From: a virus
Lineage: Duplodnaviria > Caudoviricetes
Virus record (IMG/VR): IMGVR_UViG_3300020045_002420
Coordinates: 1 to 33,945 of that record
DNA length: 33,945 bases
Direction: 5' to 3' (one strand)
Below the pieces are notes generated by a model. That model saw only the letters and a program-made list of their open reading frames with translations. It ran no database searches and was not told the DNA's origin. Of the stretch, positions 4,165-28,149 are shown piece after piece. Every line of letters starts with the position of its first letter. Position 1 is the first letter of the stretch. Made by a program: the position numbers and the translations under genes.

Positions 4165-4196
4165 TTTGGTAGTTTGGAATATGTTGAATAAATTAG
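4165..4196 (+). promoter_or_regulatory. Bacteroidota-type promoter TTTG-N20-TAAATTAG
   Basis: TTTG 4165-4168 and TAAATTAG 4189-4196, upstream of AAACACTATG at 4211. Confidence 0.6.
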
Positions 4197-4217
4197 CCGC
4201 ACACAAATACAAACACT

Positions 4218-4322
4218 ATGACACAAGAACAAAATGACGCAATTGATAGGCATTTAGAAAAATACCTATCTTACTATTTAGGCATTATATCTGGCCTTAT
4301 TTACGGATTTCTAACATTTTAA
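4218..4322 (+). CDS. 34-aa peptide with C-terminal TM (not in ORF track)
   Basis: AAACACTATG start; MTQEQNDAIDRHLEKYLSYYLGIISGLIYGFLTF. Confidence 0.55.
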   Translation: MTQEQNDAIDRHLEKYLSYYLGIISGLIYGFLTF

Positions 4323-4326
4323 CACT

Positions 4327-4854
4327 ATGACACAACACAATGACAAATCTTGGGGATGGCACGCATTAGTCACTATCCTATTTCTGGCAATATTCTTTAC
4401 TATTCTTGCGGGCTGCAACGTTGAAAAGCGCATAGCACAAGCAAAGATTGACGCAGTAGCGTTAGACCATGCCCAAAACCCATGCGCAAACGATACCACC
4501 ATCCTCACAACACCGGGCGAAACCCTAGTACTAATCGATAGCATTACAACCCACACAACAGACACGCTCACGCAAACCGATACGCTCAAGACTACCATTA
4601 CCATTACTAAGCACAGAACAGATACTATTGCCGTGGTGGTGGTGGATAAGCGTTTGGTCAATGACTACAAGGATAGTGTTAACCGCTATAAGCTATTAGA
4701 AGCCCATTTAAGGGGGCAATATACCCAACAGGCACAAACACTAGCCAAAGCCGAGAAAAGGGCAACAAACCTACTTATTTGGCTTTTATCACTCATTGGG
4801 GCGATTGCTATTGGTATCGTATTGTGGATTGTGATTAAAATTAGACCGTTATGA
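4327..4854 (+). CDS. Putative unimolecular spanin (lipoprotein with C-terminal TM)
   Basis: Lipobox LAGC after a hydrophobic signal; C-terminal TM LLIWLLSLIGAIAIGIVLWIVI; next to the lysin. Confidence 0.65.
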   Translation: MTQHNDKSWGWHALVTILFLAIFFTILAGCNVEKRIAQAKIDAVALDHAQNPCANDTTILTTPGETLVLIDSITTHTTDTLTQTDTLKTTITITKHRTDTIAVVVVDKRLVNDYKDSVNRYKLLEAHLRGQYTQQAQTLAKAEKRATNLLIWLLSLIGAIAIGIVLWIVIKIRPL

Positions 4855-5450
4855 TAAGCACCAAAGCCCTTGACCTAATACTAGACGCAGAAGGATGCGA
4901 CTTGAAACCTAATTGGCCCGGCGGCGCAAGCGGTGTAACCTACGGCTACGGTTATGATCTAGGGTATAATCTAAGGGAACAGATACAAAAGGATTGGGCT
5001 TCACTTGTCAATGGCAATGTATTGGCATTTATGCTATCATGTTCAGGTATCAAGGGCGAACCCGCCAAGCGGTTAATCAACCCAACTACCAAGACGCTAC
5101 GCATAACACAAGAAGCAGCCGAGCAAGTGTTCCAGTTGAAAACTATCCCGCGCTTCTACAATATTGCTATGGGCGCGTTCCCAGGTTTGGAGCATTGCCC
5201 AATAGACACCATTGGGGCCGTTGTGTCGTTGGTGTTCAACCGTGGGGCTGCAATGGGCGTAGAAGGCCAGCCGTCATGGGATAGTAGGCGCGAAATGCGC
5301 GAACTACGGGCGGCCATTGAAGTACAAGACCTACAAGGCGCAGCAGATGCCATCAGGCGCATGAAGCGGCTTTGGGTGGGCAAAGGATTAGATGGACTGA
5401 TAACGCGCCGCGAGAATGAAGCGCAGTTGATTGAAGGAAGTATTTTGTAA
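4851..5450 (+). CDS. Endolysin, lysozyme-like muramidase (GH24/pesticin C-terminal-like)
   Basis: ILDAEG..WPGGASGVTYGYGYDLG..VVSLVFNRG..MKRLW..GLITRRENEAQL. Confidence 0.85.
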   Translation: MISTKALDLILDAEGCDLKPNWPGGASGVTYGYGYDLGYNLREQIQKDWASLVNGNVLAFMLSCSGIKGEPAKRLINPTTKTLRITQEAAEQVFQLKTIPRFYNIAMGAFPGLEHCPIDTIGAVVSLVFNRGAAMGVEGQPSWDSRREMRELRAAIEVQDLQGAADAIRRMKRLWVGKGLDGLITRRENEAQLIEGSIL

Positions 5451-5470
5451 CTATCTCATAGTGTTTTGAA

Positions 5471-5504
5471 AGGCGGGGTATCTCTATATCCTGCCTATTT
5501 TTTT
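5471..5504 (+). terminator. Rho-independent terminator after lysin
   Basis: aggcggggta/tatcctgcct stem followed by a T-run. Confidence 0.8.
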
Positions 5505-5518
5505 GCCCATTAAATAAA

Positions 5519-5597
5519 TGCAACAGTGTTGCAAACATTTATTTTTACGGTAAATTATTACAGTTTACTTTTGATGAAACAAAACACAAACACTATG
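5519..5597 (+). promoter_or_regulatory. Early promoter 1: TGCAACA palindrome, CGGTAA-N4-TTACAG box, TACTTTTG -7, AAACACTATG start
   Basis: Palindrome 5519-5533, box 5548-5563, -7 at 5566-5573; same spacing at 8678 and 10308. Confidence 0.75.
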
Positions 5598-5903
5598 AAC
5601 AAGTTAATACCTACACAAGGCAAATGGAAAGTTGCAAGTCATAAACCATTTGACGAATATGCTACGATTATTACAACACAAGGCCGATTTTCAGGCGATT
5701 TTAGCACTATTATTGCAAGGGCTGAAGTATCTGTTTATATTTCTACCGAACAAGCTGAAGCCAACGCACTATTAATTGCGGCTGCTCCTGAATTATTGGA
5801 AGCATTGGAATTAATAGCTACTAAATTGTATTGTATTAATGATACTGTTACTGAGGATATTAGAAAAATAGCCTTAGATGCAATTAGCAAAGTAAACAAA
5901 TAA
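5595..5903 (+). CDS. Conserved phage hypothetical protein (ANAxLIAAAPELLEAL type)
   Basis: TQGKWKV...EANALLIAAAPELLEALE; start reassigned to the AAACACTATG at 5595. Confidence 0.7.
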   Translation: MNKLIPTQGKWKVASHKPFDEYATIITTQGRFSGDFSTIIARAEVSVYISTEQAEANALLIAAAPELLEALELIATKLYCINDTVTEDIRKIALDAISKVNK

Positions 5904-8699: not shown

Positions 8700-8755
8700 A
8701 TTTGTGCGGTAAAAAAATACAGTTTACATTTATATCCTAAAACAAAAACACTATG
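8678..8755 (+). promoter_or_regulatory. Early promoter 2 (palindrome, TTTG, CGGTAA box, TACATTTA, AAACACTATG)
   Basis: TGCAACAACATTGCA 8678-8692, TTTG 8701-8704, CGGTAA-N4-ATACAG 8707-8722, -7 at 8725-8732. Confidence 0.75.
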
Positions 8756-10329: not shown

Positions 10330-10379
10330 ATTTTTACGGTAATTAATTAACGCATACTTTTATAAAAACAAACACTATG
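10308..10379 (+). promoter_or_regulatory. Early promoter 3
   Basis: TGCAACACTATTGCA 10308-10322, CGGTAA-N4-TTAACG 10337-10352, TACTTTTA 10355-10362, AAACACTATG 10370-10379. Confidence 0.75.
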
Positions 10380-12770: not shown

Positions 12771-12889
12771 CCTTACCACTCGATTGGTCAGACGAGCCTA
12801 ATATGAAGACCACAAGGGCCGGTACACTAACAATGTTCTAGGGTAAAGAATGACTAGCCGGCCCTTTAACTTTTAAAAACACAAACACT

Positions 12890-14185
12890 ATGAAGAAATA
12901 TACAGAAGTAAATGTTTATGATGCAGCCGTAAAACGGATTGACTTCATATTTAAAAACTTTGAGCGCATTTATTTGTCATTTTCAGGTGGTAAGGATAGC
13001 GGAGTTATGCTTAACCTTACACTTGAGTATATGAGAAAGCATGATATAAAAAACAAGATTGGAATAATGGTATTAGACAATGAAGCTAACTACGATTATT
13101 CTCTTGAATTTATGCACTCAATACTAGAAAAAAACCTTGATCTATTGGATGTGTATTGGTGTTCCCTTCCAATTACTTTGCCATGTACTGTGAGTGCATA
13201 CGCAACAGAATGGCAGTGCTGGGGTGTTAATGATGAAAAAAGATGGATAAGGCCAATGGGAAAACAACCGTATGTTGTGAATATGCAAAATTGCCCTTTT
13301 GACTTCTTTGAAGAAAATATGTCTTACGATGAATTTTGGGATAAGTTTGGGGATTGGTACGGTCAAGGGAAAAGAACGGCTTGTCTAATTGGAATTAGGG
13401 CCGATGAAAGCCTTAACCGATTTAGAGCCATCATGAATGACAGAAAGGAAACTTTACACGGTCAAATGTGGACTAAAAAGAACACTAAAATAGTTTACAA
13501 TTGCTACCCTATTTATGACTGGAAAACAGAAGATATTTGGGTTGCAAATGGCAAATTTGAATGGGAGTACAATGAATTGTATGATATTTTTTGGAAAGCT
13601 GGCTTATCTATACACCAAATGCGTGTTGCCTCACCATTTATGAGTGAATCAAAAAGCAGTCTTAATCTTTACCGCGTTATTGATCCTCACGTTTGGCAAA
13701 CATTATGCGCTAGGGTACAAGGTGCTAACTTTATTGCCACTTATGGCAAGCAGCTAACATATCATTCCTACAAACTACCTGAAGGTCATACCTGGAAGAG
13801 CTTTGTTAAGTTCCTTTTAGATACTCTCCCTAAAGAGGTTGCAGAAAATTTTAAGATGCGCTTTATCCAATCATTCAAATATTGGGGTAGGGTAGGGCGC
13901 GGATTAAGTGAAAAAACCATAAAAGAACTAAGAGAAAATGGCATCCATTTTTACGAAAATGGCAAAACCGTTCACGGCGGCAAAACAAAAACAAGGGTTG
14001 TGATAAAATCATATCCAGACCATTTGGATATGCTTTCTTGTGGCAACGGAGAGGTAGCTAGTTGGAAAAGGTTTGCAATAACTATCCTTAAAAATGACCA
14101 TACTTGTAAGTATATGGGATTGGCTCCAACTAAAGAGCAAGCCGTTAGGCAACGTCAAATAATGGAAAAGTATAAAGATTTATAA
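12890..14185 (+). CDS. ibrA: IbrA/YbdN-like PP-loop (PAPS reductase-like) protein with DUF3440 C-terminal domain
   Basis: YLSFSGGKDSGV, LDNEA, IGIRADESLNRF, YPIYDWKTEDIW, QMRVASPF, ARVQGANF, SWKRFAITILKND. Confidence 0.9.
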   Translation: MKKYTEVNVYDAAVKRIDFIFKNFERIYLSFSGGKDSGVMLNLTLEYMRKHDIKNKIGIMVLDNEANYDYSLEFMHSILEKNLDLLDVYWCSLPITLPCTVSAYATEWQCWGVNDEKRWIRPMGKQPYVVNMQNCPFDFFEENMSYDEFWDKFGDWYGQGKRTACLIGIRADESLNRFRAIMNDRKETLHGQMWTKKNTKIVYNCYPIYDWKTEDIWVANGKFEWEYNELYDIFWKAGLSIHQMRVASPFMSESKSSLNLYRVIDPHVWQTLCARVQGANFIATYGKQLTYHSYKLPEGHTWKSFVKFLLDTLPKEVAENFKMRFIQSFKYWGRVGRGLSEKTIKELRENGIHFYENGKTVHGGKTKTRVVIKSYPDHLDMLSCGNGEVASWKRFAITILKNDHTCKYMGLAPTKEQAVRQRQIMEKYKDL

Positions 14186-14191
14186 AATAAA

Positions 14192-14247
14192 TTTGTTCGG
14201 TAAAAAATTACCGCTTACATTTAATAAACAAAAAAACAAACACTATG
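14192..14247 (+). promoter_or_regulatory. Internal promoter for the ectC-like gene with perfect operator CGGTAA-AAAA-TTACCG
   Basis: TTTG 14192-14195, operator 14198-14213, TACATTTA 14216-14223, AAACACTATG 14238-14247. Confidence 0.75.
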
Positions 14248-14745
14248 AAAATTGTAAGAATTAACGAGTTAATCGACACAGAAAGGGAAGTAAAAGGTAT
14301 TGGCTTTACAAGCATTAGAGCCTTACTTAAAAAAGACAACATGGGTTTTTCAATGCACAAGACTATAATCCCTAAAGGTGGCCCTTATAATTGGCATTAC
14401 AAAAACCATCTTGAAGCATGCTATTGTATCAAAGGTTCAGGGATTGTTACGGAAGTTAGCACCGGAATTAGTACATTAATTACAACTGATGTAGTTTATG
14501 TATTGGATAACTACGATAACATGACTTTTGAGGCATTGGAAGATGTTGTTTTAATTTCCGTATTCAATCCGCCTGTTACTGGGATGGAAGTACATAAGGA
14601 AGATGGAAGTTATGATCTAGATATTTCAGATTTATTAGAATCAAACAAGACTATTGCGCATGATATTGTTAGGTTTGTAAATGAATCTAGTAATATTTAT
14701 GATGCAGTTGAATACGTAGAATCAATTTTAAACGCTAAAAAATAA
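14245..14745 (+). CDS. ectC: Solitary ectoine-synthase-like cupin with ~40-aa C-terminal extension
   Basis: IVR...TEREV..SIRALLKKDNMGFSMHKT..HYKNHLEACYCIKGSG..YVLD..VFNPPVTGMEVHKEDGSY matches the EctC signature. Confidence 0.88.
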   Translation: MKIVRINELIDTEREVKGIGFTSIRALLKKDNMGFSMHKTIIPKGGPYNWHYKNHLEACYCIKGSGIVTEVSTGISTLITTDVVYVLDNYDNMTFEALEDVVLISVFNPPVTGMEVHKEDGSYDLDISDLLESNKTIAHDIVRFVNESSNIYDAVEYVESILNAKK

Positions 14746-14749
14746 CACT

Positions 14750-15271
14750 ATGTCAGAATTTAAGTCACCAGTTTACAATGTTCTTTGCGTTCACATTGAT
14801 AAAATACAAGCAAATGACTATAACCCAAATAAAGTAGCTCCTCCTGAAATGGCATTGCTAGAAACTTCTATTTGGGAAGATGGATACACTCAGCCAGTAG
14901 TAACGTTTTATGACAAAGAAAACGACAAATATATTGTTGTAGATGGGTTCCACAGGTATTCAATTCTAAAAACTAGCAAACGAATTTTTGATCGTGAAAA
15001 TGGGATGCTTCCAGTAGTTGTTATTGACAAGGAGATTGGCGATAGGATGGCTTCTACCATTAGGCACAATAGGGCTAGAGGTTCGCACAATATTGAACTA
15101 ATGAGTACAATTGTTGCAGAACTTGTAGAAATGGGCAAAGGGGATGCTTGGATATGTAAACACATTGGTATGAGTGCTGATGAATTACTAAGGTTAAAGC
15201 AAATAACCGGATTAGCTTCTTTGTTTGCTAATAATGATTTTTCACAGAGCTGGGAGGCATCCAATGATTAG
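14750..15271 (+). CDS. ibrB: IbrB/YbdM-like ParB/Srx-domain protein
   Basis: ANDYNPNKVAPPEMALLETSIWEDGYTQPVV..VVDGFHRY..RMASTIRHNRARGSH..IGMSADELLRLKQITGL. Confidence 0.92.
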   Translation: MSEFKSPVYNVLCVHIDKIQANDYNPNKVAPPEMALLETSIWEDGYTQPVVTFYDKENDKYIVVDGFHRYSILKTSKRIFDRENGMLPVVVIDKEIGDRMASTIRHNRARGSHNIELMSTIVAELVEMGKGDAWICKHIGMSADELLRLKQITGLASLFANNDFSQSWEASND

Positions 15272-22295: not shown

Positions 22296-23131
22296 GTTAC
22301 CGCCAAACATACAACGCCGCCCGCAAACATTACGCACCTATCTTTGAACAGATAATCCGTGAACAGTTTGAAGCATTGCTATTGGGCAATGAGCCTGACA
22401 TGGTAAAGCTGCAAGCGGCCTTGACTAGCATACATACTACGTTAGGGGTACGGATGGCAAAGCGCACCAAAGAGCAAGTATTGAAGCGGGCGCAAAAGAT
22501 GACAGACGCGAGCCGCTATGAATTAGTTGTGTTGCAGTACCTTGAACGTATGGGCTTAAGCCAATTGGCCGCCGATATTACAGACACAACCCGCGAACAG
22601 TTGCGGGCCATTCTTCTACAACAGGCAGAAAACAACCTTACCACTTCACAGGTAATGACATTGATTGAAGCGCGAGGATTACCACGTTGGAGGGGTGAAC
22701 TGATTGCCCGTACTGAAACTAGTCACGCAGCCAATGTTGGGTCAATGGTAGGTGCATTGGACACAGGGTTGAAGTGCCGTAAAGAATGGCAATCGGCACA
22801 GGACAACCGTACCAGACGGGAACCGCGCGATACAACAGACCACCTACACATGAACGGCGTAACGGCTGAAATGGATGAGAATTTCCAAGTGCCATCTAAA
22901 ATGGGTAGTGACGCAATGTTGCACCCAGGTCAACCAGGCGCGCCGGCCGCTCAGGTTTGTAATTGCCGATGCAATGTAGCTTTCATCCCACAACGAGATG
23001 CCAATGGACGCTTGATTAAACTAGCTGACCAACCGCCGCTGAATGGCAATGTGGCTTTCATCTACCAAGCATTGAATAACGTTACACTGTTGCAGATACA
23101 ACAGGCGGTTGGGGCGTTATTATCCCAATAG
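22292..23131 (+). CDS. Minor head protein (MuF/SPP1 gp7 family)
   Basis: IARTETSHA..KEWQSAQDNRTR..H..HPG..CNCRC. Confidence 0.88.
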   Translation: MSYRQTYNAARKHYAPIFEQIIREQFEALLLGNEPDMVKLQAALTSIHTTLGVRMAKRTKEQVLKRAQKMTDASRYELVVLQYLERMGLSQLAADITDTTREQLRAILLQQAENNLTTSQVMTLIEARGLPRWRGELIARTETSHAANVGSMVGALDTGLKCRKEWQSAQDNRTRREPRDTTDHLHMNGVTAEMDENFQVPSKMGSDAMLHPGQPGAPAAQVCNCRCNVAFIPQRDANGRLIKLADQPPLNGNVAFIYQALNNVTLLQIQQAVGALLSQ

Positions 23132-23209
23132 CACCATAAGCGCAATAAAGCCTAAAACTAGGGTAGTAAGTACGGTGTAGTCTGTTTTGTTGAGGTGGTA
23201 ATTGTTCAT
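23120..23209 (-). CDS. 29-aa TM peptide (moron gene 2)
   Basis: AAACACTATG start on the minus strand; MNNYHLNKTDYTVLTTLVLGFIALMVLLG. Confidence 0.55.
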   Translation of the reverse strand: MNNYHLNKTDYTVLTTLVLGFIALMVLLG

Positions 23210-23219
23210 AGTGTTTTGT

Positions 23220-23501
23220 TTATTGCCAGTTATCAATAGATGTACATAAGTTAGGACTTGCAATATCTTTTGAATTATAATTTGTGTAGATAGTACCAAT
23301 TGGGCAAAGTGCACTAGGCTTTACTACCCACCCGTTGAATGTATATACTACAGGGCCATTAATTTTTGGATGGTATTTACTTTGCTCATCAAATACTATT
23401 GCAATATCAATTGGGTTCATTACAATATGATGCTCTATTTTAGTAAATCTGTTTAGTTCTGCGTATTCAATTATTTTATTTAATGCTTTTGTGTAGTTCA
23501 T
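23220..23501 (-). CDS. Hypothetical moron protein
   Basis: AAACACTATG start and own promoter on the minus strand. Confidence 0.7.
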   Translation of the reverse strand: MNYTKALNKIIEYAELNRFTKIEHHIVMNPIDIAIVFDEQSKYHPKINGPVVYTFNGWVVKPSALCPIGTIYTNYNSKDIASPNLCTSIDNWQ

Positions 23502-23521
23502 AGTGTTTGCGTTTTAGGCGG

Positions 23522-23590
23522 CTAACTTACAACACCCATCCCAACCAATAAAAAATATTTTTGCAACATTGTTGCAATTTCATAACTTTG
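23522..23590. promoter_or_regulatory. Divergent promoters sharing palindrome TGCAACATTGTTGCA
   Basis: Palindrome 23562-23576; minus-strand -7 TAAGTTAG (23529-23522) lies 32 nt away, as in the early promoters; plus-strand TAACTTTG 23583-23590 precedes ATG 23596. Confidence 0.65.
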
Positions 23591-24126: not shown

Positions 24127-24817
24127 CATTCAGTTAAAGGATATTTCTGGCTCTGTTTCTGATATTGACGAACAAGCAAGAACAGTCAAAGCGGTTTGGG
24201 CGCATTTTGGGAATGTTGACCATGACGGCGATATAATTATCCCTGAAGCAGTTGTTAAGACTATTCGCGAGCGTGGGCCTTTAGGTAGTAAAAGTATTTG
24301 GTCTTTGACGGATCATAACGCTTGTTTAAAGTCTGCCATCGGTAAGCCTAAAGAGTTGTACGTTGAAGGCAACAACCTTATTGCTATAACTGAAATAGTA
24401 GATACTGAATGGGGCGAAGATGTGATAAAAATGTATCAATCTGGCATTATTCAAAGCCATTCAATTGGTTTCTCTACAATTAAAGCAGACTGGCAGGATA
24501 ATTCACAACAGGTAAGAATTATAAAAGAGTTGAAGTTATATGAAGGTTCAGCCGTTCTTTGGCCTGCAAACGATATGACACCTACATTGGGAGTTTATAA
24601 AGGGGCAATGACAAAAGAAAGTGCAAGCGAAAGATTGACACTTCTTTTAAAGGAAATAAAAACAGGAAGTTATTCCGATAGCACATTCGAGTTATTGGAA
24701 CTACAAATAAAGCAAATCCAATCGTTACTTACCACTCAAGCCGCGCAAGCACTCGAGCCGGATTATACGAAGCAGATAAGCGAGGAACTATTAAAATTAC
24801 ACCTTAAACTTATTTAA
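24119..24817 (+). CDS. HK97-family prohead protease
   Basis: FGNVDHDGDII..DHN..IGK..HSIGF..IKELKLYEGSAVLWPAN. Confidence 0.92.
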   Translation: MSNIQLKDISGSVSDIDEQARTVKAVWAHFGNVDHDGDIIIPEAVVKTIRERGPLGSKSIWSLTDHNACLKSAIGKPKELYVEGNNLIAITEIVDTEWGEDVIKMYQSGIIQSHSIGFSTIKADWQDNSQQVRIIKELKLYEGSAVLWPANDMTPTLGVYKGAMTKESASERLTLLLKEIKTGSYSDSTFELLELQIKQIQSLLTTQAAQALEPDYTKQISEELLKLHLKLI

Positions 24818-24819
24818 AA

Positions 24820-26031
24820 ATGAGCCAAGAAATTTTGGACAGCGTTAAATCATTAGGCGCATCCATCGACACCGCAAAAGCAGAAGCTATCAAAGCTGGT
24901 AGCAATGCAACAGAAGCCATTAAATTGGCAAACGAATTAAAGAGCAAAGTTGACGGGTTGACTTTCTCTACCCCTGAAGATGTAAAAGCTGCAAAAGATG
25001 AAATGCAAGCGCAGTTTGACAAATTCGTAACAGAGGGCAAAAAAACAACCAATGTAACTAAAGGCTTCAAAACCGAATTAGCCGAAAACATGAAGCAAGC
25101 CTCAGACGGTTTTGCTAAGATGGCTAAAGAAGGTAAAGGCAGCCGCGTTGACTTTGAACTAAAGGCCGTAGGTGATATGACCTTTGCAAACAACTTCAGC
25201 ACCGCCGATACTAGCGTTACTTTTGTACGTCCTGGTATTATCGAATTGCCTAAGCGCAAGTTGCACCTTAGGGAGTTATTGGTAAGTGGTGGAATGGGAG
25301 CCAAATCTAACTTTGACTACGTTAAAGAGATTGCAGGCGAGGGTTCAATTGCTCCAGCAGCCGAAGGTGCTACCAAAGCACAAATTGACCTTGATTTGCA
25401 AGAATCTAGCGTTAAAGCAGAATGGATTGCCGGCTTCTTGCGTATTTCTAGGAATATGCTTGATGACGTTGAAGGTATGACTACTTTCTTAGGTAGCCGT
25501 TTGCCTGAATTGCTTTTACGTGCTGAAGACACTCAAATTTTGAGCGGTAACGGTACAAGCCCGCAATTATCAGGTATTACCAATACAGGTAACTTTACCG
25601 CGTTTGGTGGTGCTGCAACAATTGACGTTGAGCAATTGGTTCAAGCGATTAGCCAATTGGAGGGTTATGATAGAGAAGCTACAGGCATCTTGATTAACCC
25701 ATCCGATTATTACAACATCATGTTAACTAAGGCTAGCGGATCAGGCGAGTATGACTTCCCATCTTTGGTGAAGATTGAGAACGGTGCAATGTATATTGCG
25801 GGTGTTCCAGTGTTCAAGTCTACTGCAATGACCGTTGACAAGTTCTTGGTGGGTGATTGGGCAATGGGTGCAAACCTTATCTTCCGTGAGCCTGCTAAAT
25901 TGCAGTTCTTCTTTGAAGATGGTACTAACGTTCGTGAGAACAAAGTGACCGTAAGAATTGAAGAGAGAGTAGCGTTACCTATCTACGGTGACAACTACTT
26001 CGTGTACGGTGATTTTGGAAACGTAGCATAG
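24820..26031 (+). CDS. Major capsid protein (HK97 fold)
   Basis: N-terminal coiled delta-like domain; AEGATK, ISRNMLDD, EDTQILSGNG, FLVGDW, ENKVTVRIEERVAL. Confidence 0.95.
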   Translation: MSQEILDSVKSLGASIDTAKAEAIKAGSNATEAIKLANELKSKVDGLTFSTPEDVKAAKDEMQAQFDKFVTEGKKTTNVTKGFKTELAENMKQASDGFAKMAKEGKGSRVDFELKAVGDMTFANNFSTADTSVTFVRPGIIELPKRKLHLRELLVSGGMGAKSNFDYVKEIAGEGSIAPAAEGATKAQIDLDLQESSVKAEWIAGFLRISRNMLDDVEGMTTFLGSRLPELLLRAEDTQILSGNGTSPQLSGITNTGNFTAFGGAATIDVEQLVQAISQLEGYDREATGILINPSDYYNIMLTKASGSGEYDFPSLVKIENGAMYIAGVPVFKSTAMTVDKFLVGDWAMGANLIFREPAKLQFFFEDGTNVRENKVTVRIEERVALPIYGDNYFVYGDFGNVA

Positions 26032-26052
26032 TGTTTAGTTTAATAATACTTG

Positions 26053-26083
26053 AAGGCCCCTTTAATTAGGGGCTTTCTTGTTT
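26053..26083 (+). terminator. Rho-independent terminator after major capsid gene
   Basis: aaggcccct-ttaatt-aggggcttt with T-rich tail. Confidence 0.75.
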
Positions 26084-26108
26084 CAATACATTTGTGTAAC
26101 TTAGCAAT

Positions 26109-26336
26109 ATGAAAATACAAATCATAAGCAGATATACCGATACGCAATTAAAGCGTAAGGTAGAAGCGGGCGAAGTCCTAACCGTTGACGCTGACCGCGC
26201 CGCCGTTATCATTGGCAAAGGGTTTGCCGTTGAGATTGCAGAAGTAAAGGCGATGGAAGCCGAATCCCCTAAACAAGAGCAATCGCACGTACCTAAACCA
26301 GAGCGCAAACATACCCCTAAAGCTAAAAAGAAATAA
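26109..26336 (+). CDS. Small head-associated protein (predicted leaderless)
   Basis: Typical post-capsid small ORF with basic tail; TAACTTAG 26097-26104, N4, ATG. Confidence 0.65.
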   Translation: MKIQIISRYTDTQLKRKVEAGEVLTVDADRAAVIIGKGFAVEIAEVKAMEAESPKQEQSHVPKPERKHTPKAKKK

Positions 26337-26338
26337 CC

Positions 26339-26872
26339 ATGCCATACAGTTACGTTATAGACAAAACCATTACGGATGTTGGTACGCCTACGGAACCTGT
26401 TACATTGCAGCAAGCAAAAGACTATTGCAGGATAAGCGGAAGTAGTGAGGACACGTTGATAACCGCATTGATTACCGCTGCAAGGGAAGCTATTGAACGT
26501 GCGACAGGGCTTTGCATTGTGGAAAAGGAAGTGGCGATTACGTTCTGCAATGACAATGGGGATTTTGACTTTACCATTGGGCCTTACAAGTCTGATTTTG
26601 TGCTAAAGGATGAAGAAGATACTACTATTGTTGCAGCCGATTACAGGCTAATTGGGTATCAGTTCCCGACACTTCGCGCACCGGCTTACTCAATACTGAA
26701 AGCAACCTATGTGGCGGGATATACCACCGTTCCAGAAGATTTGATTACGGCTATAAAGGCACAAGTCAACTACAACTATGAGAATAGAGGCACTAACATT
26801 GACGCGTTAGGCTTTGCGCCTATTGTATCTGTTATTTGCCAACGTTGGACACGCAAAAGCCCTGTATTATGA
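26339..26872 (+). CDS. Head-tail connector (gp6-like)
   Basis: EPVTLQQAKDYCRI..EDTLITALITAARE..YVAGY..VPEDL..YENRG. Confidence 0.88.
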   Translation: MPYSYVIDKTITDVGTPTEPVTLQQAKDYCRISGSSEDTLITALITAAREAIERATGLCIVEKEVAITFCNDNGDFDFTIGPYKSDFVLKDEEDTTIVAADYRLIGYQFPTLRAPAYSILKATYVAGYTTVPEDLITAIKAQVNYNYENRGTNIDALGFAPIVSVICQRWTRKSPVL

Positions 26873-27204
26873 AACTAAGCACGCAAAGACAAATAGCAGC
26901 CGAGGACTTGAAGGAACGGATCACAATTGTGAGTTACACCGTTGCGAGTGATGGCGAAGGTGGTACGACACAGACGCAATCTACAACTAACACCGTGTGG
27001 GGGCAATTAACGCCGCTTAGTCAATCGCGTGCATTGAATGAAATGCAGTTAGCTTTCAATAAAGCCGTGAGGGTTTATGTGCGCTATCCTTGTGTTATTA
27101 CCACGGATGACAAGATATTATTTGACGGTGAATATTATACTATCCACTCCATTTTGGACATAGATAACCAGCACCAATATTTAAAGATTATCGCGTATGT
27201 TTAG
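26869..27204 (+). CDS. Head closure/head-tail adaptor
   Basis: LKERITI..DGEGG..TVWG..VRY..DKILFDGEYYTIHSI. Confidence 0.82.
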   Translation: MKLSTQRQIAAEDLKERITIVSYTVASDGEGGTTQTQSTTNTVWGQLTPLSQSRALNEMQLAFNKAVRVYVRYPCVITTDDKILFDGEYYTIHSILDIDNQHQYLKIIAYV

Positions 27205-27697
27205 CGGCAAAATAGACGGGCTTGATGGACTTGCTAACAGGTTTGCAAAACTTGAGAAAGTATTGCAGCAAGAAGTTAGCGAGGAAATGAGCGCGTCCGC
27301 TTTGACCATTCAGCGCGATGCTGCTAGGCGTGCGCCGCGTAACCTTGGAAAATTGGCACAAAGTATTCAGATTGACAATACACAAGCATTATCTAAGACG
27401 GTGTTTGCAACTGCAAGCTATGCGCCTTACATTGAGTTTGGCACAGGTGGGCAGGTTTCTATTCCCCCAGGATGGGAAAGCGAAGCCGCCGCGGCAAAGG
27501 GTAAAGGCGGCAAGTTCAAGGATATGCTACTAGCTATCCGTGATTGGTGTTTGAGAAAGGGTATAGACCCAAAAGCGGCTTATCCTATTGCGGTTTCGAT
27601 ACTTCGCAAAGGCATAAGGCCTCAACCGTTCTTTGTTCCTGCTTATGAAGCTGAAAGGCCAAAACTTATTCAACGTATTAAAAACCTACTGAAATGA
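27197..27697 (+). CDS. HK97 gp10-like neck/tail completion protein
   Basis: APRNLGKLAQSI..YAPYIEFGT..PQPFFVPAYE. Confidence 0.85.
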   Translation: MFSGKIDGLDGLANRFAKLEKVLQQEVSEEMSASALTIQRDAARRAPRNLGKLAQSIQIDNTQALSKTVFATASYAPYIEFGTGGQVSIPPGWESEAAAAKGKGGKFKDMLLAIRDWCLRKGIDPKAAYPIAVSILRKGIRPQPFFVPAYEAERPKLIQRIKNLLK

Positions 27698-28095
27698 CCA
27701 ACCCAATACCAGCGATAAAAAAATACTTATACACTGCCATTGGTGCGGCCACTAGCTTGACCGTTTATGATGGCATTGCACCCGATACGGATGATAATGA
27801 ATATATTGTATTGACAGGCCGAAGCGGTACGCAATTGCAAGGTAAAACAGGGTTTTCGAGCAACGTGAATATTACAGTGGACGTTGTTACGCGCGGATCA
27901 TTCACAGGGTACAAACGCAGTGAAGAGATAGCGCAATTGATACTTACCGCGTTGGATAGCAATACAAGTATAACACTTTCAACGGGACAAGCTACTTCGC
28001 TTTATTTGGCTACTATAACCAATTTAGACGGACTTAATCCGTTAGATAATGTGTTCAGAACGATAATCACTTACAATGTAATTATTAGTGGATAA
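27694..28095 (+). CDS. Tail terminator protein (DUF3168-like)
   Basis: Synteny; VYDGIAP..YIVL..ITVDVVT pattern. Confidence 0.7.
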   Translation: MTNPIPAIKKYLYTAIGAATSLTVYDGIAPDTDDNEYIVLTGRSGTQLQGKTGFSSNVNITVDVVTRGSFTGYKRSEEIAQLILTALDSNTSITLSTGQATSLYLATITNLDGLNPLDNVFRTIITYNVIISG

Positions 28096-28149
28096 TTTGG
28101 AAGTATAGAAACTGTTTTGTAGGTTTGAAGCCTAAACACAAACACTATG
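28096..28149 (+). promoter_or_regulatory. Canonical Bacteroidota promoter for tail-region moron
   Basis: TTTG 28096-28099, N20, TAGGTTTG 28120-28127, AAACACTATG 28140-28149. Confidence 0.7.

What the first reader, a model, noticed from the sequence alone, without database searches (positions are those of the whole stretch)
26026..26083. Major capsid mRNA ends in the exact antisense of the early start motif
GCATAGTGTTTAGTTT (26026-26041) overlaps the capsid stop codon and lies just before the terminator. Its reverse complement AAACTAAACACTATGC pairs with all AAACACTATG starts (14/15 with the 23209 gene). I saw no minus-strand promoter or credible ORF that would explain it. Inference: the 3' end of the probably most abundant late transcript could act as a multi-target antisense RNA occluding early-gene start codons, an RNA-only early-to-late switch. 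It could alternatively be a decoy or an inverted cassette scar.
Basis: partly seen in the sequence, partly recalled or inferred. Interest (0 to 1): 0.78.

Follow-up and report, generated by a model that had tools for sequence, protein, structure and literature searches.

The report
Phage RNA tails mirror start codons
In an uncultured phage that likely infects Bacteroidota, the ends of the capsid and lysis genes carry an exact mirror of a 10-letter tag found at about ten of the phage's own start codons, and related phages keep or change tag and mirror together, so these RNA tails likely dampen translation of the tagged genes, though no transcript or repression has been measured.

Summary
Observation confirmed and not chance. 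AAACACTATG occurs 11 times (0.15 expected). Nine copies are gene starts; the two others are mirrors just 5' of terminators, at the capsid end (26027) and the endolysin end (5457, not in the finding). A complete relative (G006) uses the same start tag and has a mirror before an unrelated terminator. A distant phage (G328) has a different tag and a matching different mirror behind its endolysin, with a consensus host promoter. The capsid mirror survives a swap to a 35%-identical capsid but is dispensable at this site: 2 of 7 same-terminator relatives lack it, as do contigs in two runs. Best reading (0.55): a short anti-start RNA module (seed plus terminator) that pairs over tagged start codons, in trans and on read-through RNA. 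The strict early-to-late switch is only partly supported, since 4 of 11 tagged genes follow late-type promoter boxes. A neutral cassette scar (0.22) remains the main rival. No expression data were obtained.

The parts
24820..26031 (+). Major capsid protein gene, 403 aa, ends GCA TAG
   Evidence: phrog_10 major head protein, E 1.6e-37
26026..26041 (+). Anti-start tract, copy 1; exact 10-nt core CATAGTGTTT at 26027-26036
26052..26083 (+). Intrinsic terminator behind the capsid gene (10-bp stem, T-rich tail)
26097..26111 (+). Late-type promoter box TAACTTAGC and start of gene 26109; pairs 12 of 14 in register with copy 1 on read-through RNA (predicted)
4851..5450 (+). Endolysin gene upstream of copy 2
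   Evidence: PF00959 and phrog_7
5454..5466 (+). Anti-start tract, copy 2 (TCTCATAGTGTTT; the same 13-mer as in G006)
5472..5504 (+). Terminator behind copy 2
5519..5597 (+). Early cassette: palindrome, CGGTAA, Bacteroidota -7 box TACTTTTG, tagged start of gene 5595
4211..4220 (+). Start tag of 34-aa hydrophobic ORF in the lysis region (late-type box at 4189)
4320..4329 (+). Start tag with one mismatch (TAACACTATG), overlapping the upstream stop; 175-aa lysis-region gene
8746..8755 (+). Start tag, early cassette gene (88 aa)
10370..10379 (+). Start tag of the Erf-like annealing protein gene
12883..12892 (+). Start tag of the PAPS-reductase-like/DUF3440 gene
14238..14247 (+). Start tag of the ectoine-synthase-like gene
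14743..14752 (+). Start tag with one mismatch, overlapping the upstream stop; ParB-like gene
23207..23216 (-). Start tag of the 29-aa hydrophobic minus-strand ORF
23499..23508 (-). Start tag of the 93-aa minus-strand ORF (late-type box at 23529)
28140..28149 (+). Start tag of a 140-aa accessory gene among tail genes, with its own -7 box TAGGTTTG

Best explanation
The capsid 3' tract is one of two copies in this phage of a short module, a 10-13 nt mirror of the phage's start tag followed by a terminator, whose RNA likely pairs over the tagged start codons and would dampen their translation. Shown: the mirror, its place before terminators, its recurrence in G006, its survival through gene swaps on both sides, and a matching tag-mirror pair of different sequence in G328. 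Inferred: late transcripts, or 3' fragments of them, end in this module and bind tagged leaders in trans (predicted net binding -11 to -16 kcal/mol). On read-through RNA the same arm would also fold onto the next gene's start, so that only transcripts from that gene's own promoter are translated. The capsid copy is likely redundant with the endolysin copy. The targets are accessory, replication-side and lysis-region genes rather than early genes alone.
For: All 3 non-start copies of the tag in the two complete genomes that use it are mirrors before a terminator on the late-transcribed strand. In G006 the unit sits between two terminators behind a -7-like box, before a stem unrelated to the window's. 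Among 345 stored sequences (4.5 Mb, redundant), 10 of 102 CATAGTGTT copies precede a terminator, all in this phage group. In a scan of 34 genomes, G000 (9 starts), G006 (9) and G328 (5) beat all cross-genome controls; controls reached 5 or more in 4 of 1120 comparisons. G328's unit has TTTG-N19-TATATTTG upstream and its mirror in a predicted hairpin loop. The mirror is kept with a 35%-identical capsid, and is wholly non-coding in L174, L175 and L251. Copy 2 is joined to unrelated upstream and downstream DNA in public runs, with no listed substitution in 5454-5488. The tag is kept at internal starts without the promoter cassette and is not enriched in a Chitinophagaceae genome, 13 copies against 25 control. 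Precedent: GibS pairs over start codons in Bacteroides, which lacks an obvious Hfq homologue (PMC7366714, passages).
Against: No transcript, end map or repression assay. L002 and L003 lack the capsid mirror; contigs in runs X5 and X8 lose the CAT; L004, L005 and L022 keep only 7 nt. Neither window copy has a convincing promoter of its own. In a 155-nt context much of the capsid seed is predicted paired (unpaired probability 0.02-0.24 at 26032-26035). The duplex is short and AU-rich, whereas GibS uses a 30-50 nt seed region. T/G-rich spacers, including TGTTTAGTT, also precede terminators in unrelated phages. G328 alone is only suggestive: about 0.1 such cases are expected among 32 genomes, and its mirror does not cover the AUG. 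30 of 34 genomes scanned show nothing above their controls; G335 (2 starts against a control maximum of 1) is too weak to count. The 12-of-14 match to gene 26109 is not special: 7 of 47 correctly placed starts score 12.
Confidence: 0.55

Rival explanations
1. Neutral scar or recombination linker. The tag is a host-friendly start sequence spread by cassette shuffling; the mirrors are left-over starts of lost minus-strand genes, or crossover points kept only because they lie next to an essential terminator.
For: Genes are swapped exactly at the tag's ATG, and capsid alleles join exactly at 26026. The phage encodes an Erf-like annealing protein. Copy 2 lies 52 nt from the cassette palindrome, like real cassettes at 47-54 nt. 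Loose ends in X1 and X5 read like a short minus-strand ORF and a further start beyond copy 2 (30 letters only). The capsid copy is lost in near-identical relatives.
Against: Beyond the tag itself, the flanks of neither mirror resemble real cassette leaders (best p 0.087). The real minus-strand cassettes I read (23501, L171, L174, L175, G006 33241 and 5780) show no terminator-like hairpin in the leader, by eye. It needs three separate gene losses, each ending before a terminator, and does not explain G328.
Confidence: 0.22
2. Cis-only insulator. The mirror acts only on read-through RNA, folding onto the next gene's start across the terminator and promoter, as long T4 transcripts do for genes e, soc, 49 and I-TevI.
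For: Predicted folds pair the mirror with the next start: window 5448-5597 (z -5.8) and G006 (z -3.8). The AUG of gene 26109 pairs with the mirror at probability 0.75-1.0 in the window, L001, L174 and L177.
Against: The capsid copy matches the distant tag exactly but its neighbour imperfectly. The pairing is not predicted in L175. Copy 2 is also found ahead of other downstream cassettes. Units with their own predicted promoter (G006, G328) make little sense as cis-only elements.
Confidence: 0.15
3. DNA-level site: an operator, or the inverted repeats of an invertible promoter, where orientation does not matter to RNA.
For: Copy 2 and the 5588 tag form an 11-bp inverted repeat around a terminator and promoter; G006 has a similar 10-bp pair.
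Against: Sense copies sit on start codons. No integrase or invertase among 59 ORFs scanned. No strand-change joint in 4 runs laid on 5200-5800 (contigs drop rare forms). The capsid copy has no near partner.
Confidence: 0.05
4. Chance: the codons GCA TAG followed by a T/G-rich spacer.
For: CATAG is coding in this allele, and spacers behind distant capsid homologues are 49% T and 18% G.
Against: Copy 2 and the G006 copy are non-coding, and each has an expectation near 1e-3 or lower.
Confidence: 0.03

Closest known systems
GibS sRNA of Bacteroides thetaiotaomicron (PMC7366714; passages seen)
   Same: Single-stranded 5' seed that pairs across start codons in a Shine-Dalgarno-less phylum lacking an obvious Hfq homologue.
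   Different: Host-encoded, shown by experiment, with a long seed region and a few unlike targets. Here the element is phage-encoded and untested, with a 10-13 nt seed, about ten identical targets, and partly built into mRNA 3' ends.
icaR mRNA 3'UTR-5'UTR pairing, Staphylococcus aureus (PMC3868564; abstract seen)
   Same: A short 3'UTR motif mirrors a translation start region.
   Different: icaR pairs with its own Shine-Dalgarno. The capsid mRNA's own start is not matched (5 of 14); only copy 2 has tagged starts (4218, 4327) on its own predicted transcript.
T4 inhibitory structures at genes e, soc, 49, I-TevI (PMC3014915; passages seen)
   Same: A long transcript hides the next gene's start; the gene's own promoter skips the blocking arm.
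   Different: T4 uses local, gene-specific hairpins. Here one shared arm spans a terminator and also matches distant genes.
T4 RegB and RegA (PMC3014915; passages seen)
   Same: One factor acts on start regions shared by many phage mRNAs; RegB helps the move from early to later expression.
   Different: Those are proteins; here the predicted agent is RNA.
PeSL mobile regulatory cassettes of T4-like phages (PMC2839356 abstract and section 13, PMC4122927 abstract)
   Same: Repeated promoter-plus-start cassettes at which accessory genes are swapped; this fits the sense copies of the tag.
   Different: In the parts I read, PeSLs have no mirror of the start; most cassettes here have no stem-loop.
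C4 antisense RNA of phage P1 (PMC8198154; passages seen)
   Same: Phage RNA that represses phage genes by antisense pairing.
   Different: C4 controls one antirepressor operon in a temperate phage. No Rfam match here, and no repressor or integrase found.

Membership tests
trans-acting base-pairing sRNA (GibS type) | Complementarity across target start codons | tested here: met
   9-11 nt exact match to 11 starts, duplex -11.2 to -17.4 kcal/mol against a genome background of -7.4 +/- 2.5
trans-acting base-pairing sRNA (GibS type) | Discrete transcript with its own 5' end | tested here: inconclusive
   No consensus promoter for either window copy; predicted boxes in G006 and G328; no reads that map ends
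trans-acting base-pairing sRNA (GibS type) | Accessible single-stranded seed 5' of a terminator | tested here: inconclusive
   Open in the G006 unit, in a weak hairpin loop in copy 2, partly paired in copy 1
trans-acting base-pairing sRNA (GibS type) | Seed conserved or co-varying with targets | tested here: inconclusive
   Kept in 5 of 7 same-terminator relatives and in G006; different pair in G328; lost in L002 and L003
trans-acting base-pairing sRNA (GibS type) | Represses targets in vivo | not testable with these tools
   Needs reporters
3'UTR-derived sRNA (defining features recalled) | Shares the terminator of an mRNA | tested here: met
   Both window copies lie between a stop codon and the terminator
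3'UTR-derived sRNA (defining features recalled) | Released by cleavage or an internal promoter as a stable fragment | not testable with these tools
   Only contigs were available
T4-type read-through occlusion | Upstream arm pairs with the next start, with that gene's promoter in between | tested here: met
   Predicted only; not predicted in L175, L002, L003 or L004
PeSL cassette | Repeated promoter-start cassette marking gene swaps | tested here: met
   Identity with relatives ends at the tag's ATG
PeSL cassette | Terminator stem-loop inside each cassette | tested here: not met
   Seen ahead of the 5595 cassette, not in those at 8753, 10377, 14245 or 28147 (by eye)
C4 antisense RNA | Match to the Rfam model | tested here: not met
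   No Rfam family in the window at gathering threshold
Invertible promoter | Both orientations present, recombinase nearby | tested here: not met
   No inversion joint and no such recombinase among 59 ORFs; rare forms would be missed

The most novel reading that the evidence does not exclude
An RNA-only counterpart of T4 RegB/RegA. The phage stamps one tag on the start codons of a chosen gene set and builds its mirror into the tails of its most abundant late mRNAs, or into a free small RNA, so that late transcription itself switches that set off. Different Bacteroidota phage lineages use different tag-mirror pairs.
Probability: 0.3. Interest if true: 0.85.

Novelty: new variant of a known kind. 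Interest (0 to 1): 0.62.

Why it matters
If real, it shows a small phage timing its genes without a regulatory protein, by making many start codons identical and expressing their mirror. It would also offer a compact, programmable repression module for Bacteroidota, which lack Shine-Dalgarno signals and an obvious Hfq. The test is cheap: one 55-60 nt RNA and one reporter. I found no paper describing this in Bacteroidota phages in searches (open-access library only).

Tried and rejected
Minus-strand peptide from the capsid mirror: 16 codons here, 12-18 codons of differing sequence in relatives; rejected. Internal promoter for the window copies: both have ATTTTG 9 nt before the CAT, but neither fits TAnnTTTG, the capsid one is coding, and the endolysin one is changed (G5447A) in 3 of 4 runs; not accepted. 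Homology of mirror flanks to cassette leaders: not significant. Distant capsid homologues: none of 19 has the mirror; two show single 10-11 nt matches to one own start region (L011, L017), which I do not count; most of these contigs lack early genes. Host prophages: the cassette pattern was found in 0 of 301 genomes of the family of G008. Endolysin search gave no close relative (best 63%). The copy-2 terminator pattern found 2 unrelated contigs. Further promoter-T/G-rich-terminator units in other phages: some (G343, G331, G341) look like terminators and starts of minus-strand genes and were dropped. No cultured phage above 60% capsid identity. No supplementary files were read.

Full report
Setting. 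The window is a complete 33,945-base virus record with direct terminal repeats. It encodes terminase, portal, protease, a major capsid (24820-26031), tail and lysis genes, an Erf-like annealing protein and a primase/helicase; no integrase or repressor appeared among 59 ORFs scanned. The host is inferred to be Bacteroidota. Only 5% of starts have a Shine-Dalgarno-like word and 53% have A at -3; early cassettes carry TAnnTTTG-like boxes (consensus from PMC7366714); the nearest genome-borne capsid (44%) lies in a Chitinophagaceae assembly. The tag AAACACTATG has A at -3 and -6, which favour initiation in Flavobacterium (PMC6847099 section 15).

Observation. It is correct at the stated coordinates, including the 14-of-15 match to the 23209 start. 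The tag occurs 11 times against 0.15 expected. Nine copies start ORFs, and two more starts differ by one base and overlap an upstream stop. The two copies that start nothing are both mirrors 5-16 nt before a terminator: 26027 behind the capsid and 5457 behind the endolysin. With 7 terminator windows of 35 nt, I estimate 5e-4 expected copies at genome composition, or about 1e-3 at the T/G-rich composition of capsid spacers. The pair is not chance.

Which genes are tagged. Six lie in the early region, one is an accessory gene among tail genes with a host-type promoter, two are in the lysis region and two are minus-strand genes in the head region. The last four follow the late-type TAAnTTAGC box. 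No core virion gene has the exact tag. 'Early' is therefore an approximation.

Close relatives at the capsid site. Seven contigs of this group share the terminator (19 of the 99 pattern hits had short flanks, and none of those matched the window). Five keep the mirror: L001, with the same capsid, and L174, L175, L177 and L251, whose capsid is only about 35% identical and joins the window's sequence at or near 26026. In L174, L175 and L251 the stop lies upstream, so the whole mirror is non-coding. L175 and L251 have identical capsids and are not independent. L002 and L003 (99.5% and 99.3%) share a replaced spacer without the mirror, probably one event, although they carry tagged starts. Their contigs are 53% and 14% complete and lack the lysis region. 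L004, L005 and L022 (85-92% over the matched part) keep 7 nt. In 4 public runs the second capsid allele joins at 26026 in all four. Contigs in X5 and X8 carry A26028T and two insertions that remove the CAT, and one X5 contig has a change at the tenth base. So the capsid copy is common but dispensable.

The module elsewhere. Copy 2 is joined to unrelated DNA upstream (loose ends at 5438, 5454, 5457) and downstream (5494, 5505), with no listed substitution in 5454-5488; 13 rows of that table were not shown. G006, a complete 36.4-kb relative with a different head module (capsid-like gene 24% identical), has 11 AACACTATG copies. Ten are starts, and one is a mirror about 100 nt behind the capsid-like gene's stop, between two terminators, with the same 13-mer as copy 2, an unrelated stem and a -7-like box upstream. 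Its endolysin-position gene has no mirror. I then scanned 34 genomes or large contigs (the window, G006 and 32 found mostly through Erf, capsid, endolysin or terminator-pattern hits). Only G000 and G006 repeat a start 9-mer 8 or more times. Scoring terminator-proximal 8-mers against own and foreign starts, G000 (9), G006 (9) and G328 (5) beat all their controls; G335 did too, at a negligible level (2 against 1); foreign scores of 5 or more occurred in 4 of 1120 comparisons. G328 uses an AAACCAAA-type start. It carries TTTGGTTTGG between its endolysin and first early gene, the position of copy 2, with a consensus TTTG-N19-TATATTTG promoter, the mirror in a predicted loop, and a terminator. This single co-varying case is suggestive, not decisive. 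Earlier AI notes of this scan report similar elements in other Bacteroidota phages; I did not test them and do not count them as support.

Mechanism. Predicted duplexes with the 11 tagged starts are -11.2 to -17.4 kcal/mol, against a background of -7.4 +/- 2.5; net binding with the full 55-58 nt units is -11 to -16 for six targets tested. Pairing covers the AUG and positions -1 to -7. On read-through RNA the mirror is also predicted to close onto the next start, as long T4 transcripts do for gene e (PMC3014915). Against this: neither window copy has a credible promoter, the capsid seed overlaps the stop codon and is partly paired in context, and nothing shows a stable RNA. The sense copies are well explained as PeSL-like swap points (PMC2839356), which keeps the scar reading alive. 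But the mirror flanks do not resemble cassette leaders, the tag persists at internal starts without a cassette, and it is not enriched in the one host-family genome counted.

Verdict. The element is real and recurrent, and most likely an anti-start RNA module (0.55). Rivals: neutral scar or linker 0.22, cis-only insulator 0.15, DNA site 0.05, chance 0.03. It works like a GibS-type or 3'UTR-borne base-pairing RNA, and in purpose like T4 RegB/RegA. Membership of a trans-sRNA class is unproven, and it matches no Rfam family. Papers seen: PMC6847099 (abstract, section 15), PMC2839356 (abstract, section 13), PMC4122927 (abstract), PMC7366714, PMC3014915 and PMC8198154 (passages), PMC3868564 (abstract), bioRxiv 10.1101/2024.10.31.621285 (abstract, section 17). 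Searches listed no description of this system. New variant of a known kind; interest 0.62.

Noticed in passing
window 23120-23209 (-): 29-aa hydrophobic peptide gene, antisense within the late region, conserved in L001, L002, L174 and L175 while neighbouring minus-strand genes vary; could be an exclusion or membrane-active peptide (inference).
   Followed up: partly
window 24179-26026 vs L174, L175, L177, L251: Two capsid alleles only about 35% identical, with similar N-termini, are swapped in otherwise close phages; the junction is at 26026 in all four runs laid.
   Followed up: yes
window 253, 4189, 10938, 19025, 20921, 26097, 28788, 29896 (+), 23529 (-): TAAnTTAGC box, mostly before virion and lysis genes, several only 3 nt before ATG (near-leaderless); probably a late variant of the Bacteroidota -7 box.
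   Followed up: partly
window 5519, 8678, 10308, 23562: Palindrome TGCAAC-n3-(G/A)TTGCA upstream of tagged cassettes; a possible operator. The same cassette carries an inserted 130-aa gene among tail genes in L251.
   Followed up: partly
window 12890-15271: PAPS-reductase-like/DUF3440, ectoine-synthase-like and ParB-like genes in a row, all three tagged; possibly a DNA-modification cluster (inference).
   Followed up: no
window 962, 10979, 23569: Three HNH endonuclease genes; the one before the protease is absent in L002.
   Followed up: no
window 24048 (-), inside the HNH gene: A TAAATTAGC box followed by TTCATAGT and a weak terminator-like hairpin; about two such boxes are expected by chance, so probably incidental.
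   Followed up: partly
G006 25707-27883 (L283): Two glycosyltransferase genes and a 109-aa gene behind the terminase-small-like gene carry the tag, so late-operon genes can be tagged; G006 also has a tRNA (L283 697-800).
   Followed up: partly
G317, G322, G325, G330: Intergenic 50-60 nt units with a consensus -7 box, a CAT-bearing T/G-rich tract and a terminator; possible looser anti-start RNAs, not above controls.
   Followed up: partly
L001 46-1940: Inverted duplicate of part of the head module; probably a misassembly.
   Followed up: no
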